NCBI GenBank assembly: GCA_018651085.1 | Contig: JABIEQ010000002.1 | Coordinates: 87,783-151,782, forward strand | Length of the DNA stretch: 64,000 nucleotides | From: Candidatus Magasanikiibacteriota bacterium | GTDB taxonomy: Bacteria; Patescibacteriota; Patescibacteriia; Magasanikbacterales; UBA922 | Reading direction: 5' to 3' | Part shown: piece by piece, positions 581-62,960 of the stretch | Numbering within the stretch: the first letter of the stretch is position 1 | Layout: the number at the start of each line of letters is the position of its first letter | Translations under genes and position numbers: made by a program | The notes under the pieces: model-generated | Told to the model about the DNA's origin: nothing | What the model saw: only the letters and a program-made list of their open reading frames with translations | The model's database searches: none

Positions 581-629
581 GAAGATGAAAAAGAGGGGAT
601 TTATCCCCATAATGGTGATATATCACCTC

Positions 630-961: not shown

Positions 962-2469
<1,508 letters not shown>

Positions 2470-4136: not shown

Positions 4137-5294
4137 TTATTTTTTAAAACGATGGGCTTGGCTGTACTTACTATTATTTTGTGGAATAATATCTATTTTT
4201 ATTGATTTGAGTGCTTGAGTAATGTGTTCTTGGATTTCTTGTTGGTTTTGTAGGAATTGATTTTTTATAAAGGTGTTTTTTTCGTATTGATCTGTCTGCT
4301 TTTGTATTAATGTATCTAGTTTTGTGGAAGTATTTCTTTCAAATTCTATTTCTATTTCTTGAGATGTTCCTAATAGTTTGGGAGCAAAGGGTTTGCGTTG
4401 TGATAAAAATTGTAGATATTTTTTTCCGTCGTATACTCTGAATGTATCAAGAGATATGATAAAAGCTTGTTCTGGATTAGGCCCTGATCCCCAAGGGGAT
4501 GGAACATTTAGATGGATTCTTTCCCTTTCTGTTATAACCGCTACGGAAGGGGATAGTGCGATTTTTTGTATGTTGGGATCCTTTTTTTGCAGATATGCCA
4601 TGAGTTTTTGAGAAGGAAGGAGATGATATTGTTTGAATTTTCCTCGTTGTAGGTACGTTATGTAGGTTGTGATATCCCATGGTTGGTTTGGGGGAAGGTT
4701 GTTTTCGTTAAACGGGGTTGATTCTTTACGAAATTCAAATCGAGTTTCTTCTGTTTCACTTAATCCTGCATCTATGTGTGTACGGTTTATTTTTGTTTGA
4801 TATTCCATGCGAGATGGAAAAGATTTTGTATTCAGTGGATCGTTTAAATAAGAGGCAAATATGTTCTGGTTTTTAAATCTCTGTCTTAGTCTATAGAGTG
4901 CTTTATTATTGAACAGTGTATCGTCTTTTGTGTCAAAGTATATATCAAAAAAAATAGAAGAATTTGTGGACGTAGTTATATAGTATGCTTGGGATAATGC
5001 TTCTGGAGGATTGAAGTTATCTTTATCTATTTGTAGTTGCAGTTCTTTTTCAATATGTGCAATCATTTCTTTTGTGGAATATAAGGATGTTGATGGTGTT
5101 TGAATAGATAATTTAAATTCTCTTTCTATTCTTGAAGGAGTACCTGTTGCGGTTTTTTTTGTGATACTTATTGATGTAGTAATTTTGGAAGTGGGAATAC
5201 CAAAAATTGTGATTATAATAATAAGTAGTCCGATTGTACTTAAGATTAGGATGTGTTGGTATTTTCGACACAGGATTGGTATGGAAATTGTCAT
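4137..5294 (-). CDS. Membrane-anchored CYTH-domain protein
   Basis: N-terminal TM helix, then RIEREFKL (canonical CYTH ExExK signature); 385 aa. Confidence 0.45.
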   Translation of the reverse strand: MTISIPILCRKYQHILILSTIGLLIIIITIFGIPTSKITTSISITKKTATGTPSRIEREFKLSIQTPSTSLYSTKEMIAHIEKELQLQIDKDNFNPPEALSQAYYITTSTNSSIFFDIYFDTKDDTLFNNKALYRLRQRFKNQNIFASYLNDPLNTKSFPSRMEYQTKINRTHIDAGLSETEETRFEFRKESTPFNENNLPPNQPWDITTYITYLQRGKFKQYHLLPSQKLMAYLQKKDPNIQKIALSPSVAVITERERIHLNVPSPWGSGPNPEQAFIISLDTFRVYDGKKYLQFLSQRKPFAPKLLGTSQEIEIEFERNTSTKLDTLIQKQTDQYEKNTFIKNQFLQNQQEIQEHITQALKSIKIDIIPQNNSKYSQAHRFKK

Positions 5295-13369: not shown

Positions 13370-13559
13370 TTATTGTTGTGTCCCCACAAAAGCCCTTGAC
13401 GAATGATTAAAAATCTACTATAATCTAGAGCGCGTAGAAATGCGCTCATTTTTATACATTTTTTGCTTTATATAGAGCAAAACATATTTATATACGCCGC
13501 TGGATTACAAAACCAGTCTAATCACTTAGGTCAGGTGCGGCAAGCATTATTTCGTTTGT

Positions 13560-14753
13560 ATGGCAGAAGACTTTGATCGTTCAAAGCCACATGTAAACGT
13601 TGGTACTATTGGTCACGTTGATCATGGGAAGACGACTACAACTGCAGCACTTTTAGCTGTAGCAGGTGCACACGGGCTTATCGCATCAACTAAGAAAGTT
13701 GATGAAATTGACGCTGCACCAGAAGAAAAGGCACGTGGTATTACTATCGCAACAGCTCACGTTGAGTATGCGACAGAAAATCGTCACTACGCTCACGTTG
13801 ATTGTCCAGGACATGCTGATTATGTAAAAAACATGATCACAGGGGCAGCACAGATGGATGGAGCAATTTTGGTTGTTTCAGCAGCTGATGGTCCAATGCC
13901 ACAGACTCGTGAGCACATCTTGCTTGCTCGTCAAGTTGGTGTACCATATATTGTTGTATACCTTAATAAGATTGACCAAGTGACAGATCCTGAACTTATT
14001 GATCTTGTTGAAGAAGAAATTCGTGAACTTCTTACAAAATATGAATTCCCAGGAGAAACTACCCCTATTATCCGAGGATCTTCTTTGAAAGCTCTTGAAA
14101 ATCCATCTGACGAAGCTGCGGCTAAGCCAATCTTGGATCTTCTAAAAGCACTTGACGAATACATTCCTACACCTGAACGAGATCTTGATAAAGATTTCCT
14201 CATGCCTATTGAAGATGTTTTCTCAATTGAAGGGCGTGGAACAGTAGTTACTGGAAGAATTGATCGTGGTATTGTTAAAGTTGGTGAAACAGTAGAAATT
14301 GTTGGAATGGGAGTTGATGTAAGTAGTACAACAGTTACTGGAGTAGAGATGTTTAACAAGAACCTTGACCAAGGACAAGCTGGAGACAATGCTGGAATTC
14401 TTCTTCGTGGTACAAAAAAGGAAGATGTTCAACGTGGACAAGTTCTTTCTAAACCAGGAACAATTAATCCACATACTGAATTTGAAGCAGAAGTGTACGT
14501 ACTTACCAAAGAAGAAGGTGGACGTCATAAGCCATTTTTCAAAGGGTATAAACCACAGTTTTACATTCGTACAACTGACGTAACTGGTGAAGTTGAACTT
14601 CCAGAAGGAAGTGAAATGGTAATGCCAGGAGACACTGTTAAACTAAAAATTAAACTTATTGTACCAGTTGCTATGGAAGAAAAAGTTCGATTTGCTATTC
14701 GTGAGGGTGGACGAACTGTTGGAGCTGGTGTTGTAACGAAGATTCTTAACTAA
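13560..14753 (+). CDS. tuf: Elongation factor Tu
   Basis: [21 protein letters not shown] GTPase motifs; 397 aa. Confidence 0.97.
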
Positions 14754-15151: not shown

Positions 15152-15254
15152 TATTCAACTCGTTTTTGGAGTTGCTGCCCCTTTCGGGGGTAGTATTCTA
15201 GAAATGATCTGATATTTCTTGATTTCTGTGGATAATCATGGGTATATCTCGCCC

Positions 15255-15283: not shown

Positions 15284-15522
15284 ATTGGCGTCTAGATTTA
15301 ACTCTAATGAGGTTCCGTCAGATAAGATCCTAGCTATTAGGAAAACATCTGTGCTCGACCATTATTAGTTTTCGTGAGGTACCCTTCTAAATTATATATT
15401 CCCCTTTATTACAGTTTAATACCTCATTTGTGAGGTCGGTTTGTAAAAAGGCTAGAAGTAGTTATATGACACTCTTGTGTCGCGTTACTGCTTCTAGTTT
15501 TTTGTTAGCAGTCTTGAAGTAT

Positions 15523-48702: not shown

Positions 48703-48860
48703 ATAAGTTGGTATGAACGGGGTCTATTGTAGTCGTTTTGTCTGTTTTTGTCAATATATTTTTGTTGTGGAGAAAAATGTGCTATACTCAATCATATCTA
48801 TTACATTTTTTAATCCTCATTAGCATGTCTGTCGAGTGTTAATGATTTCAGGGAGAGTCT

Positions 48861-58891: not shown

Positions 58892-58963
58892 ATATTTGAC
58901 TGATATGTTATGTTTGTGTTAATTTATGGTTTCTTGTTCTTTCATGCTTAACGGAGGGTAAAG

Positions 58964-59398
58964 ATGCAACATTGTCCAAAATGCGCTGGGAACGTCTTGT
59001 TTGATGAATCATCAAGTGAGTGGTGGTGTTTCCACTGTGATTCTGATGGACTTAAAGGGAAGCCTGGGGTGAAGGCTTCTTCTTCTGTCGCAGAGGTCAA
59101 GTCCAGACTTGCTGCGGTGGAGTTCCAAAACCCAACGGGCAATTGGAGCTACGAAGGAGCCTACTCGGTTGAACTGACCGATCGCGCTGACATGAGCGTC
59201 GCCCCCGTGGGCAGTGAATTCCTCAAGATCGAGGGGAATCGAGTCGTCATCAGTGAAGGGCGCGCCATGCAGGGGATGGGAGGCATTCAGCTTTACGTGG
59301 AGGAATATCCCTTTTTTTTGGGATACGTCTGCCTCAAGTGCATTCGTAGAGGAGACGGCTTTCTCCTTTGGAAGAACAACAACTACGACAACATGTAG
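58964..59398 (+). CDS. Hypothetical zinc-ribbon protein in a GC-rich island (horizontal-acquisition candidate)
   Basis: strong SD GGAGGG 6 nt before the ATG; CPKC...CFHC N-terminal zinc ribbon; local GC clearly above the flanks. Confidence 0.45.
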   Translation: MQHCPKCAGNVLFDESSSEWWCFHCDSDGLKGKPGVKASSSVAEVKSRLAAVEFQNPTGNWSYEGAYSVELTDRADMSVAPVGSEFLKIEGNRVVISEGRAMQGMGGIQLYVEEYPFFLGYVCLKCIRRGDGFLLWKNNNYDNM

Positions 59399-59473
59399 GA
59401 GGACGCTGTGAAAAATTCACGAGCACCACCCTGAGAGAACGTGTTTCACGATTCAATCGGGGGACATAAAAAA

Positions 59474-59534: not shown

Positions 59535-59960
59535 CTACTTTCTTATACCAACCTGCGGAGAATAATGGAACTCTTGCTTCTTTCGACAGATCGCGTTCCT
59601 TCGAAGTCACATATGACAGTATCTACGGTTCAGCCTCCTGAGGAGAGGAATACCCAAAATGAAGAGGTTGTACGAACCTCGACCATTGTGGGGGAGCCGA
59701 TTCGCCGATCGTACTGGTGTCTGCTTGCAGAGGCCATCAATCGCGGTATGGAGTAGTCCGGCTTTGGACGCTAAACTGAGTGTTGCGGAAACCTTTTCCC
59801 GTGTCCTAACCATTCTGGTTAGTTGATAAAGAAGGTGCGGTCGCTGAGTATCAAGTGACCCTGACATGACCATAGGTCTGCTCTTCCCACACATCGTGGG
59901 TAGAATGGCAAGGTTGTGTCGGGGAGAGTATAAAAATCATCTTATATAGGTGGTTTTTTG
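59535..59960 (+). ncRNA. Promoter-to-terminator transcript of ~420 nt, GC-enriched, open on both strands. Either a small ORF (59565-59756, 63 aa, GGAG SD) with a long 3' region or a structured ncRNA. Identity unresolved.
   Basis: defined by the promoter at 59499 and the hairpin at 59974-59993; contains GGAGUAGUCCGGCU and GGUGCGGUCGCUGAG, which resemble RNase P CR-I/CR-II, but no P4 partner was found. Confidence 0.3.
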
Positions 59961-60343: not shown

Positions 60344-60344
60344 G

Positions 60345-60418
60345 CGGACCGGACGGGATTCGAACCCGCAACTTCCGCCGTGACAGGGCGGTGCTCTAGC
60401 CAATTGAACTACCGGTCC
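60345..60418 (-). tRNA. tRNA-Asp (GTC)
   Basis: reverse complement GGACCGGTAGTTCAATTGGCTAGAGCACCGCCCTGTCACGGCGGAAGTTGCGGGTTCGAATCCCGTCCGGTCCG. Confidence 0.85.
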
Positions 60419-60707
60419 AAATGTCTTATAAGACTATGCTTATAAGAATGGAATTTATTTTGTTTTTTCTATTGCTTTTCCATGCATTGTAAGGTGGAGT
60501 TTTTCTCCAGCAGTCAGTGGTTTCAATGCTCGTTTCACCTTGTTTGCTGCTCGTTTAAGCCTATTCTTTTTTTCAGCAACAGCTGCGAGCATCTTGTTTC
60601 TTTTTCGTCTTCCCATACAGTTTCTTAAAGTTAACGTTCATATGATACACCAGGTATCTGTTAATGTCAATATATTGAATATGTGGAAAAGCCGGTTTTT
60701 TATAAAT

Positions 60708-60815
60708 AAAAAAACCGCTAGATGTCCAAGCCTGGCATGAGGGATGAAGGAGGGGGCATCCCCGCCTAGCTTGGACATACAACGGTCTTCGTTTTGATTG
60801 TTTTTTGTGTAACAA
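60708..60815 (-). ncRNA. Candidate small RNA: consensus promoter (TTGACA-N17-TATATT on minus, 60822-60850), nested hairpin and T-run terminator
   Basis: RNA about 100 nt: ...GUAUGUCCAAGCUAGGCGGGGAUGCCCCCUCCUUCAUCCCUCAUGCCAGGCUUGGACAU...UUUUUUU; 10-bp outer stem, inner GGGAUG/CAUCCC stem, loop contains CCUCCU. Confidence 0.35.
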
Positions 60816-60967
60816 CACCTCAATATAACATGTATAGTTGCTCTTGTCAATAATTCCATGTGGATAAGTAAAAATATGTGTTTTTCCGTTGTTTAAGCCA
60901 TGTATTAGGTATAATTCTTTTTCTATTCTGTTTAATGAGACTTAACAAAATAATAACATTTTTTTAT

Positions 60968-60998
60968 AAAAAAACCCTCACAATTTGTATTGTGAGGG
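60968..60998 (-). terminator. Terminator of the infC-rpmI-rplT operon
   Basis: minus reading ccctcacaatacaaattgtgaggg-TTTTTTT. Confidence 0.6.
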
Positions 60999-62224: not shown

Positions 62225-62306
62225 ATCATTATGAGGTTTATACTGAGCTCACTATAGCAACTTATAAAAAACATGTCAATGGAGGGGATTTCTTCTGAAT
62301 TTATGG

Positions 62307-62335
62307 TTGACTATAGTCTTTTGTAGTGGTATGGT
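62307..62335 (+). promoter_or_regulatory. Promoter-like element (TTGACT-N17-TATGGT) at the 5' edge of the GC-rich RNA locus, divergent from the infC promoter
   Basis: ttgact atagtcttttgtagtgg tatggt. Confidence 0.35.
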
Positions 62336-62339
62336 GCTC

Positions 62340-62960
62340 ACTGGTTTTCCATCTTATGACTCAAGGGGGAGGTTATGGATACTTTGTGGTGTGTTTCGAC
62401 AAAGGTGTCTTCGGGAGCGTTGCTGTTCATCGGTTCGGTGACTACCTATGGTGGTCCTACTCCACGTTCGCTTGCAGGAGTGGAGGTCTCGGATACTTCT
62501 GTTGGCCTCATCACTCATAGTCTGGCTGGGGTAGAGGCCTTTCTCATTCATCATGGTCAGGAGCTTGATGATGAAAGTCGGGATCTTTGTTTCGATCAGC
62601 TGTCCCGACGGCCTTGGGCGTACGGAATGCACTTGCCGGACCGGGACACTTCGATCACTGATCCGTTCGCAGCCTCTTTGTGGGCACAGTTCCTTCTCCT
62701 GATGGGACGTGCGCCTCAATTTTCGAAGGGGGCAGTTCGTTTGCCTACGGAGATTCTTTCGATTCTCAGTCTGGCCGATGCGATGCATCTTGGCACGGCT
62801 AATCGACAGGTTCTGTGGAAGCTGGCGCTGTCGTCTTTGCTTGTGGAGCCGCCGGACTTCGATCAAGAGACTGTGATCATGGGGCTCTGAAGATGGATCA
62901 AAGGGGGAGGCCGCTTGCGTTTTCGTATTGCGGCCACTCCTCGTAGAGATGTTATAACAA
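62340..62960 (+). ncRNA. About 620-nt GC-rich (~50%) structured-RNA candidate, open on both strands. The sub-region 62513-62885 has RNase P RNA-like features (rnpB candidate).
   Basis: P3-like hairpin CAUCAUGG...UGAUGAUG immediately 5' of GAAAGUCGGGAUC (CR-I-like); GCCGGACUUCGAUC (CR-IV-like) 270 nt downstream; 9-bp enclosing helix UCAUAGUCU/AGACUGUGA; ends at the bidirectional terminator 62971-63010. Confidence 0.35.

What the first reader, a model, noticed from the sequence alone, without database searches (positions are those of the whole stretch)
60708..60850. Promoter-hairpin-terminator unit on the minus strand: candidate ~100-nt sRNA with a CCUCCU-containing loop
A consensus TTGACA-N17-TATATT promoter (minus) sits 10-15 nt upstream of a 10-bp perfect stem (AUGUCCAAGC/GCUUGGACAU). 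The stem encloses an inner GGGAUG/CAUCCC hairpin whose loop is CCCCCUCCUU, an anti-Shine-Dalgarno-like sequence identical to the 16S 3' end. It is followed by U7. It overlaps only implausible ORFs. It could be a regulatory sRNA that sequesters SD sequences of target mRNAs, or a small stable RNA.
Basis: seen in the sequence. Interest (0 to 1): 0.5.

Follow-up and report, generated by a model that had tools for sequence, protein, structure and literature searches.

The report
New small hairpin RNA in Patescibacteria
The flagged promoter-hairpin-terminator unit is a real small RNA gene, absent from Rfam and from the papers I searched, conserved in one group of uncultivated ultra-small bacteria (Magasanikbacteria-like Patescibacteria); its unchanging loop copies the ribosome's mRNA-docking sequence, yet these bacteria rarely use that docking, so its function is open.

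Summary
On the minus strand, TTGACA-N17-TATATT (60850-60822) precedes an 81-nt hairpin (60790-60710; -48.3 kcal/mol, z -6.9) with loop CCCCCUCCUU, then U7. One detail is wrong: the promoter lies about 43 nt upstream of the 10-bp stem, not 10-15.

It is a conserved RNA gene. About 107 homologous hairpins were found in 96 loci from Magasanikbacteria-like Patescibacteria, almost always between rplT and tRNA-Asp. In the large alignment, 29 of 32 base pairs show compensatory changes. G-U pairs outnumber A-C mismatches 225 to 36, which fixes the transcribed strand. 66 of 77 distinct upstream regions carry their own TTGAC-N17-19-TWNNNT promoter. No Rfam family matches.

The promoter shares an upstream TTATCCACA-like box with the 16S, tRNA-Ser and putative EF-Tu promoters. 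Some relatives have 2-3 tandem copies. A small basic protein (MGxRKKNN...) is encoded next to it in 51 of 96 loci.

The function is inferred only. The genome is nearly free of Shine-Dalgarno sequences, so global SD sequestration is unlikely. My best guess is that the loop pairs with the few SD-led mRNAs. The main rival is a protein-binding mimic of the 16S 3' tail. In six relatives the hairpin abuts the rplT stop codon and probably ends that mRNA.

The parts
60859..60867 (-). Upstream promoter box TTATCCACA, 8 nt upstream of the -35. It is identical to the DnaA-box consensus (from my own knowledge).
   Evidence: TCC[AC]CA boxes precede 5 of 20 strong promoter-like sites in the window, against a 1.8% background. 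A related box lies 9, 19-20 or 30 nt upstream of the -35 in 47 of 66 homologous promoters.
60822..60850 (-). Sigma-70-type promoter TTGACA-N17-TATATT with TG (extended -10). The predicted transcription start is near 60816.
   Evidence: 11 of 12 matches, TG present. An equivalent promoter with its -35 located 37-62 nt upstream of the hairpin is found in 66 of 77 distinct related loci.
60791..60816 (-). Predicted A-rich 5' leader of about 25 nt. It is not conserved; in many relatives transcription would start at the hairpin base.
   Evidence: and the -35-to-hairpin distances. This is an inference from promoter geometry.
60710..60790 (-). 81-nt hairpin, the conserved RNA body: basal stem, one-nucleotide interruption, 11-bp middle helix, GGC/GCC helix with a 3-nt 3' bulge (CAU, 60739-60737), then a 7-bp apical stem.
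   Evidence: MFE -48.3 kcal/mol, z -6.9. Covariance-model hit at 60706-60791, 83 bits on this strand against 24 bits on the opposite strand. Covariation.
60747..60756 (-). Apical 10-nt loop CCCCCUCCUU. It contains the anti-SD core CCUCCUU and is the presumed interaction site.
   Evidence: CCCUCCUU is conserved in all 13 hairpins from 10 genomes that were found through L20 alone. The closing base pair covaries (A-U or G-C).
60708..60714 (-). U7 tract directly after the stem. Together with the hairpin it forms an intrinsic terminator, and part of it pairs with the 5' A-rich base of the stem.
   Evidence: 48 of 58 distinct homologues have at least 5 U here; the exceptions are mostly the internal units of tandem arrays.
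60975..60998 (-). Separate intrinsic terminator of the infC-rpmI-rplT operon (context). It shows that the hairpin RNA in this genome is not simply the rplT terminator.
   Evidence: 10-bp stem followed by U7. rplT spans 61353-61009.
60642..60690 (-). Second promoter, TTGACA-N17-TATCAT, with its own upstream box TTTTCCACA. It drives the downstream small basic protein gene and probably tRNA-Asp.
60455..60616 (-). Gene for a 53-aa Lys/Arg-rich protein (MGRRKRNK...). It belongs to a small-protein family encoded next to the hairpin in relatives and is a possible partner.
   Evidence: The family is found in 51 of 96 hairpin loci and in none of the loci without the hairpin. No Pfam, NCBIfam or PDB match.
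60344..60418 (-). tRNA-Asp (GUC), the conserved downstream neighbour of the hairpin RNA.
   Evidence: tRNA-Asp lies within about 35-900 nt downstream in most related loci.

Best explanation
This is an independently transcribed, lineage-specific small RNA of about 85-110 nt, found in Magasanikbacteria-like Patescibacteria.

Architecture: it consists of one long irregular hairpin that also serves as its own intrinsic terminator. A strong sigma-70-type promoter drives it. That promoter carries the same upstream TTATCCACA-like box as the rRNA, tRNA and putative EF-Tu promoters, so the RNA is probably made abundantly together with the translation apparatus.

Proposed mechanism: the working part is the invariant 10-nt apical loop CCCCCUCCUU. 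I propose that it base-pairs with GGAGG-type, SD-like sequences. In a genome where almost no gene has an SD, that would make it a selective repressor of the small minority of SD-led mRNAs. It would block ribosome docking, or create a duplex for nucleases, in the manner of known sRNAs that carry C-rich or anti-SD loops. Tandem copies in some genomes would raise the dose.

What is shown: the gene, its structure, strand, promoter, terminator, distribution and synteny.

What is inferred: expression, abundance, pairing through the loop, and the identity of the targets.
For: - The structure is real. MFE z -6.9. The consensus fold has 22 of 31 pairs with compensatory changes. In the 12-sequence set found through L20 alone, 23 of 32 pairs have double changes and 91% of cells are paired, against 36-49% when the partner columns are slid. 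In the 58 distinct sequences, 29 of 32 pairs have double changes, 94.6% of cells are paired, and the covariation score is 0.64 against 0.27 in shuffles and about 0.13 when slid.
- The strand is clear. G-U/U-G pairs number 225 against 36 A-C/C-A. Covariance-model scores are 83 bits on this strand and 24 on the other.
- It is an independent gene. Promoter in the window. 66 of 77 distinct relatives have TTGAC-N17-19-TWNNNT at 37-62 nt upstream, even when squeezed directly against the rplT stop codon, and a separate rplT terminator is often visible. The U-tract is present in 48 of 58.
- The promoter belongs to the translation-apparatus class.
- The loop CCCUCCUU is conserved in all 13 unbiased hairpins, across 52-75% L20 identity, while the stems change.
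- The genome is SD-poor, but a few genes in member genomes have strong AAGGAGG SDs: pilin-like, PpsA-like and GIY-YIG-like genes.
- There is precedent. The alpha-r14/NfeR1 sRNAs silence mRNAs through ultraconserved CCUCCUCCC loops (PMC10746234).
- No Rfam family matches.
Against: - There are no expression data.
- No conserved target was found. AGGAGGGG occurs nowhere else in the 64-kb window, and I saw no recurrent site in about 100 related loci.
- Duplex predictions against 16S, tmRNA, the tRNAs and neighbouring leaders are unremarkable.
- The invariant 5' CCC of the loop extends beyond the anti-SD, so the partner need not be a generic SD. Invariance of this kind fits a protein or rRNA partner equally well.
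- Parts of the stem (RUGUUYG/YGRACAY) and a 3-nt bulge are also conserved, which pure antisense RNAs do not require.
- In 6 of the 77 distinct related arrangements the hairpin has no promoter and is the 3' end of the rplT mRNA.
- Loop invariance in the metagenome set was imposed by the search pattern. Only the 13 hairpins found through L20 are unbiased.
Confidence: 0.4

Rival explanations
1. Protein-binding RNA, or a 16S-3'-tail mimic. The loop presents an anti-SD-like C/U-rich sequence to a protein that normally recognises the 16S 3' end or C-rich RNA. Candidates are a platform r-protein, a KH-domain factor such as Era or KhpA/B, or the neighbouring small basic protein. The RNA would form an RNP, or titrate that protein in step with ribosome synthesis. 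Tandem hairpins would then act as multi-site sponges.
For: - The 10-nt loop is invariant, including the CCC that lies outside the anti-SD, and the bulge and middle helix are also conserved.
- The promoter is of the translation-apparatus type.
- Some relatives have 2-3 tandem copies.
- A Lys/Arg-rich 36-53-aa protein family is encoded next to the hairpin in 51 of 96 hairpin loci and in none of the other loci.
- The organism is SD-poor yet keeps the anti-SD. In Bacteroidetes, which share this trait, the anti-SD is held by bS21/bS18/bS6 (PMC7797042).
- bS21 is reported as frequently undetected in Parcubacteria (PMC9297842).
Against: - No protein partner has been identified. The small protein matches no known RNA-binding or ribosomal family and is missing near the hairpin in about half of the loci, mostly the more distant subclade.
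- Its co-occurrence with the hairpin may simply reflect shared ancestry.
- Era recognition requires GAUCA, according to my recollection of the literature, and the loop lacks it.
Confidence: 0.25
2. A cis-acting 3' element of the infC-rpmI-rplT transcript. It would be an unusually long terminator or stabiliser hairpin, possibly with an autoregulatory role for L20, L35 or IF3. On this view the upstream 'promoter' is secondary.
For: - The hairpin lies directly downstream of rplT, on the same strand, in nearly all loci.
- In 6 of the 77 distinct arrangements it starts 0-10 nt after the rplT stop codon with no promoter.
- The stem plus U-tract has terminator form.
Against: - 66 of 77 loci have a near-consensus promoter between rplT and the hairpin, and many also have a separate rplT terminator, including this window.
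- Several loci carry the hairpin without rplT upstream but still next to tRNA-Asp or the small protein: L081, L169, L138, L162 and L143.
- Terminators do not keep an invariant 10-nt loop.
- There is no match to the Rfam L20 leader.
Confidence: 0.1
3. A leader or attenuator of the downstream small-protein/tRNA-Asp unit. Transcription from the hairpin promoter would either terminate at the hairpin or read through into the downstream genes, perhaps controlled by the small protein binding the loop.
For: - The order hairpin, small protein, tRNA-Asp is conserved.
- In L182 and L143 the small ORF starts only 9 and 22 nt after the hairpin, which leaves no room for a separate promoter.
Against: - In 33 of the 35 arrangements where the small ORF was found by pattern, including the window, a separate strong promoter (TTGACA...TATTAT) lies between the hairpin and the ORF.
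- Many loci have no small ORF there.
- There is no alternative antiterminator fold; the hairpin is a single, very stable structure.
Confidence: 0.07
4. A DNA-level or selfish element, such as a palindromic repeat, a MITE or a recombination site, rather than an RNA.
For: It is a long inverted repeat. Tandem duplications occur, and it sits next to a tRNA gene, which is a common integration target.
Against: - It is single-copy in the window and keeps a fixed syntenic position.
- There are 225 G-U pairs against 36 A-C mismatches, so the palindrome is imperfect at the DNA level but intact as RNA on one strand.
- The promoter and U-tract are conserved.
- No copy was found in viral contigs.
Confidence: 0.02

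Closest known systems
alpha-r14 / NfeR1 (and AbcR) sRNAs of alpha-proteobacteria
   Same: They are trans-acting sRNAs whose hairpin loops carry an ultraconserved anti-SD motif (CCUCCUCCC) while the stems diverge. They silence mRNAs by pairing at the ribosome-binding site (PMC10746234). Multiple redundant loops in one transcript resemble the 2-3 tandem hairpins seen in some relatives.
   Different: - Those RNAs have three short hairpins in one RNA; this is a single hairpin with about 32 base pairs.
- The motif differs (CCCCCUCCUU).
- The phylum differs.
- No Rfam model matches.
- The host genome here is SD-poor, so the pool of possible targets is very different.
- No target is known.
C-rich-loop sRNAs of Firmicutes (RsaE/RoxS, RNAIII hairpins)
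   Same: C-rich unpaired loops that pair with the G-rich SD regions of target mRNAs, and Rho-independent terminators. This description is from my own knowledge, not tested here.
   Different: No sequence or structure match to the Rfam RsaE model or other Staphylococcus sRNA models. This RNA has a single long hairpin, and its promoter is of the stable-RNA class.
Anti-SD handling in SD-poor Bacteroidetes (ASD sequestered by bS21/bS18/bS6; rare SDs used as regulatory elements)
   Same: The organism is SD-poor but keeps a canonical anti-SD, and a handful of genes keep strong SDs (PMC7797042). The comparison suggests that SD/anti-SD pairing is reserved for regulation.
   Different: That system uses ribosomal proteins and cis SDs, with no RNA decoy. 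No equivalent free RNA with an anti-SD loop is described in that paper. Whether anti-SD sequestration happens in this lineage is unknown.
Ordinary intrinsic (Rho-independent) terminators
   Same: A stable stem followed by a U-tract, with an A-rich 5' flank that pairs with the U-tract. In six relatives the hairpin sits where the rplT terminator would be.
   Different: - It has about 32 base pairs and conserved internal irregularities.
- It has an invariant 10-nt loop.
- It has its own promoter.
- It is conserved across 47-75% L20 identity with covariation.

Membership tests
Any Rfam 15 family | Covariance-model score at or above the family's gathering threshold | tested here: not met
   There is no hit over the element at gathering thresholds. 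With E up to 10, only meaningless plant-miRNA and Mycobacterium sRNA matches of 12-15 bits appear.
alpha-r14 / NfeR1 sRNA family | Three hairpins, each with CCUCCUCCC in an unpaired region | tested here: not met
   Each unit is a single hairpin, and the loop is CCCCCUCCUU. The family definition is taken from PMC10746234.
alpha-r14 / NfeR1 sRNA family | Represses mRNAs by pairing of the anti-SD motif at the ribosome-binding site | not testable with these tools
   No targets were found in the window or the related loci. This needs whole genomes and experiments.
Bacterial small SRP RNA (4.5S) | A hairpin of about 100 nt with a GNRA-type tetraloop and the conserved domain IV internal loops | tested here: not met
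   The loop is 10 nt and C/U-rich, and there is no Rfam SRP hit even at E up to 10. The motif description is from my own knowledge.
6S RNA | A rod of about 180 nt with a large central bubble that mimics an open promoter | tested here: not met
   The hairpin is 81 nt and has no central bubble. There is no Rfam hit.
L20 leader / r-protein autoregulatory leader | Lies in the 5' leader of the infC-rpmI-rplT operon and matches the Rfam L20_leader model | tested here: not met
   The element lies downstream of rplT. There is no L20_leader hit; the only weak hit nearby is the rplT terminator matched to the terminator portion of the L10_leader model.
Intrinsic terminator | A G+C-rich stem-loop directly followed by a U-tract | tested here: met
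   The stem is followed by U7, and 48 of 58 homologues have at least 5 U. The simple scanner did not list it because the loop is longer than 8 nt. Form alone does not explain the conserved loop or the promoter.
Independent sRNA gene (generic) | Own promoter and terminator, conserved structure with covariation, and no coding potential | tested here: met
   Expression itself was not testable.
Type I toxin-antitoxin pair (sRNA plus small protein) | A small hydrophobic toxin peptide whose mRNA overlaps or pairs with the sRNA | tested here: not met
   The neighbouring small protein is strongly basic and hydrophilic, is encoded on the same strand, and does not overlap the hairpin. Its leader has no complementarity to the loop.

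The most novel reading that the evidence does not exclude
In a bacterial lineage that has largely given up Shine-Dalgarno-led initiation, the cell makes a free decoy of its own anti-SD, co-regulated with rRNA and tRNA and possibly bound by a dedicated small basic protein. This RNP would police the remaining use of SD/anti-SD pairing. It could do so by silencing SD-led mRNAs (pilins, mobile-element and phage genes), or by buffering the proteins that hold the 16S 3' tail. Either would be a trans-acting layer of translation-initiation control that has not been described.
Probability: 0.15. Interest if true: 0.8.

Novelty: new variant of a known kind. Interest (0 to 1): 0.55.

Why it matters
Patescibacteria have tiny genomes and very few known regulatory RNAs. 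This is a well-supported new RNA family with about 100 examples, strong covariation, and a promoter of the rRNA/tRNA class.

Its invariant loop reproduces the anti-SD core in organisms that barely use SD sequences. That makes an open question testable: why SD-poor bacteria keep the anti-SD, and how the few SD-led genes are controlled.

The work also yields two further leads. One is a candidate upstream promoter element for translation-apparatus genes. The other is a previously unannotated small basic protein family linked to the RNA.

Tried and rejected
- Rfam at gathering thresholds and at E up to 10 gave nothing for the element.
- SRP RNA, 6S RNA, L20 leader, Y-RNA-like and 5S-like readings were considered and dropped, because no model matches and the architecture is wrong.
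- Target search. No AGGAGGGG outside the hairpin in the window. No recurrent complementary site in related loci. RNAduplex of the loop against 16S, tmRNA, the tRNAs, the infC leader and the small-protein leader gave nothing distinctive.
- Repeat or MITE idea. The element is single-copy in the window, and the one viral-contig match was a chance hit.
- About 35 of the 120 stretches matched by the metagenome pattern were chance matches in unrelated high-GC coding DNA.
- A second covariance model found no members in Uhrbacteria, Paceibacteria, Saccharibacteria or Bacteroidota loci.
- Small basic protein. No Pfam, NCBIfam or PDB relative. Only same-species or very few homologues turned up in the big protein searches, so a bS21 or bS22 identity could not be supported.
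- The GC-rich islands at 62325-62950 and 59550-59920 were tested as possible large RNAs. They gave no Rfam hit, no nhmmer match in related loci, and weak folding z-scores of -1.5 and -1.4.
- Literature searches found no description of this RNA.

Full report
**1. The observation**

On the minus strand there is a near-consensus promoter, TTGACA-N17-TATATT, with a TG extended -10 (60850-60822).

It has four parts:
- a basal stem, 60790-60780 with 60720-60710;
- the 10-bp perfect stem, AUGUCCAAGC with GCUUGGACAU (60778-60769 and 60731-60722);
- a short GGC/GCC helix with a 3-nt bulge;
- an apical GGGGAUG/CAUCCCU stem closing the 10-nt loop CCCCCUCCUU (60756-60747).

The hairpin is followed by U7 at 60714-60708. 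The fold has -48.3 kcal/mol, against -26.5 +/- 3.2 for shuffles (z -6.9).

The 16S gene in the window ends GGAUCACCUCCUUUCU, so the loop shares CCUCCUU with the anti-SD.

The only error in the finding is the spacing. The -10 hexamer is about 43 nt from the 10-bp stem, not 10-15 nt. This gives a predicted RNA of about 108 nt with a leader of about 25 nt. The overlapping ORFs have no family match.

**2. What organism this is**

The neighbouring genes are smpB, tmRNA, infC, rpmI and rplT upstream, and tRNA-Asp downstream. The best L20 relatives (up to 75% identity) are MAGs titled Magasanikbacteria/Magasanikiibacteriota or 'Patescibacteria group'. The same species, with identical L20 and an identical hairpin, occurs in GCA_018701095.1 and in a Saanich Inlet 150-m metagenome.

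**3. It is a conserved structured RNA**

*The unbiased set.* In loci fetched only through L20, hairpins with the same loop lie just downstream of rplT in L001, L002, L003, L004 (three tandem copies), L005, L007, L008 (two copies), L018 and L022.
- RNAalifold gives one long hairpin in which 22 of 31 pairs carry compensatory changes.
- On a hand-checked structure, 23 of 32 pairs have double changes and 91% of cells pair. When the 3' partners are slid, only 36-49% pair.

*The expanded set.* A covariance model and a metagenome pattern scan raised the set to about 107 hairpins in 96 loci.
- On the 58 distinct sequences of the 76-hit alignment, 94.6% of cells pair and 29 of 32 pairs show double changes.
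- The covariation score is 0.64, against 0.27 for shuffles and about 0.13 for slid structures.

*Caveat on ascertainment.* The metagenome pattern fixed the loop and part of the middle helix. Loop invariance is therefore independent evidence only in the 13 hairpins from 10 genomes that were found through L20. All 13 keep CCCUCCUU while their stems differ. About 35 of the 120 pattern matches were chance hits in unrelated DNA.

**4. Strand and gene status**

- G-U/U-G pairs (225) far outnumber A-C/C-A mismatches (36).
- The model scores 83 bits on the rplT strand and 24 on the other.
- 66 of 77 distinct upstream regions contain TTGAC-N17-19-TWNNNT with the -35 located 37-62 nt upstream of the hairpin. 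This holds even when the promoter is squeezed directly against the rplT stop codon. Many loci, like the window, also show a separate rplT terminator.
- In many relatives the predicted start site falls at the hairpin base, so the mature RNA is essentially the hairpin alone.
- 48 of 58 distinct sequences end in at least 5 U. The exceptions are mostly the internal units of tandem arrays.

Six arrangements are different: L113, L094, L106, L082, L123 and L088. There the hairpin sits 0-10 nt after the rplT stop codon with no promoter, so it is presumably the 3' end of the rplT mRNA.

**5. Distribution and synteny**

The RNA lies almost always between rplT and tRNA-Asp. Some loci lack rplT upstream but still have tRNA-Asp beside the hairpin. 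In an Uhrbacteria relative, tRNA-Asp follows rplT directly with no hairpin. This suggests the gene arose in that spacer.

A second model found no members in other Patescibacteria or Bacteroidota loci, and none in viral contigs. The window holds one copy. No Rfam family matches, and literature searches found no description of the RNA.

**6. Promoter class**

A TTATCCACA-like box (TCC[AC]CA) lies 9, 19-20 or about 30 nt upstream of the -35 in 47 of the 66 homologous promoters. That spacing follows helical phasing.

In the window, 5 of 20 strong promoter-like sites have the box, against a 1.8% background:
- the 16S rRNA promoter;
- the promoter of a 397-aa gene at 13560, which I take to be EF-Tu by size and position but did not verify;
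- the hairpin promoter;
- the next promoter downstream;
- the tRNA-Ser promoter.

An inverted copy also lies before a gene at 15430, at the head of what I take to be the ribosomal-protein gene cluster (gene identities there not verified). The RNA therefore appears to belong to the translation-apparatus promoter class. The identity of the box with the DnaA-box consensus comes from my own knowledge; which factor binds it is unknown.

**7. Constraints on mechanism**

- The window's roughly 55 long ORFs almost all lack an SD. The only strong SD precedes ORF 58964-59398.
- A crude count puts hairpin-bearing loci at the level of Bacteroidota loci (24% against 20% with any 4-mer SD) and well below the few cyanobacterial and proteobacterial loci (57%).
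- Global SD sequestration is therefore unlikely.
- A few genes in member genomes do carry strong AAGGAGG SDs: pilin-like, PpsA-like and GIY-YIG-like genes.
- No loop-complementary site was found in the window or recurrently in related loci. Duplex predictions with the local stable RNAs are unremarkable.

**8. A linked small protein**

The 53-aa ORF at 60455-60616 belongs to a Lys/Arg-rich family (MGxRKKNN...KRDKKKxKR). It is usually expressed from its own strong promoter, between the hairpin and tRNA-Asp. An HMM of the family finds it in 51 of 96 hairpin loci and in none of the other loci held. It matches no Pfam, NCBIfam or PDB entry. It is almost invisible to large protein searches. The co-occurrence may reflect phylogeny, or it may reflect a partnership with the RNA.

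**9. Interpretation**

With high confidence (about 0.9) this is a new, lineage-specific small RNA gene.

For mechanism, I favour loop-mediated pairing with SD-like sequences of the minority of SD-led mRNAs (about 0.4, including gene status). This is analogous to NfeR1/alpha-r14 (PMC10746234).

The main rival (0.25) is a protein-binding mimic of the 16S 3' tail, possibly in complex with the small basic protein. It is motivated by three things:
- the invariance of loop positions that lie outside the anti-SD;
- the conserved bulge and middle helix;
- the Bacteroidetes precedent of protein-held anti-SDs in SD-poor bacteria (PMC7797042), together with the reported frequent absence of detectable bS21 in Parcubacteria (PMC9297842).

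The cis-terminator, leader and DNA-element readings are minor.

**10. Verdict**

It is a robust RNA family that is absent from Rfam 15 and from the literature I could search. The function is unresolved. The SD-sequestration idea survives only in a narrowed form.

Noticed in passing
window 601-609(+), ~13374-13382(+), 48766-48774(-), 60682-60690(-), 60859-60867(-); inverted copy 15227-15235(-): A TTATCCACA-like box (TCC[AC]CA) sits about 8-20 nt upstream of the -35 of the 16S, putative EF-Tu, tRNA-Ser, hairpin-RNA and small-protein promoters. That is 5 of 20 strong promoter-like sites against a 1.8% background. In relatives its spacing is 9, 19-20 or 30 nt. It may be an upstream element or factor site for translation-apparatus genes. 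It is identical to the DnaA-box consensus.
   Followed up: partly
window 60455-60616 (-): A 53-aa Lys/Arg-rich protein (MGRRKRNK...) belongs to a previously unannotated small-protein family. The family is encoded next to the hairpin in 51 of 96 hairpin loci and in no other locus held. It has no Pfam, NCBIfam or PDB match.
   Followed up: partly
whole window; ORF 58964-59398 (+): Almost none of the roughly 55 long ORFs has a Shine-Dalgarno sequence, although the 16S keeps CCUCCU. The single clear SD (aacGGAGGGtaaagATG) precedes a GC-rich 144-aa ORF with a weak zinc-ribbon-like N-terminus. In related loci, strong SDs occur at pilin-like, PpsA-like and GIY-YIG-like genes.
   Followed up: partly
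window 62325-62950 and 59550-59920 (also 58950-59400): GC-rich islands (0.50-0.57 against about 0.38 for the surroundings) with long ORFs on both strands. They lie between tmRNA and infC, and downstream of tRNA-Asp. They have no Rfam hit, no nhmmer match in related loci, and folding z-scores of only -1.5 and -1.4. Their nature is unknown.
   Followed up: partly
L004 3553-3820; L008 3471-3655; also L083, L086, L090, L119, L151, L163, L171: In some relatives the hairpin gene is tandemly duplicated two or three times. Only the last unit is followed by a U-tract, which implies one multi-hairpin transcript.
   Followed up: partly
L166, between the rplT stop codon and the hairpin promoter (about 4140-4200): A palindrome there contains both CCCCTCCTT and its complement AAGGAGGGG (...cgCCCCTCCTTattAAGGAGGGGat...). 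In other words, the loop motif is paired with its own complement in the rplT 3' region of one relative. This may be chance, or a target-like sequence.
   Followed up: no
window 62281-62287 (-): The sequence CCCCTCC lies immediately upstream of the -35 (TTGACA) of the putative infC promoter, on the coding strand. This is the position where other promoters carry the TCCACA box.
   Followed up: no
window 962-2468 (+): The 16S rRNA gene stands alone. No 23S or 5S gene follows it in the window, and minus-strand ORFs begin at about 2764. This suggests an unlinked rRNA operon.
   Followed up: no
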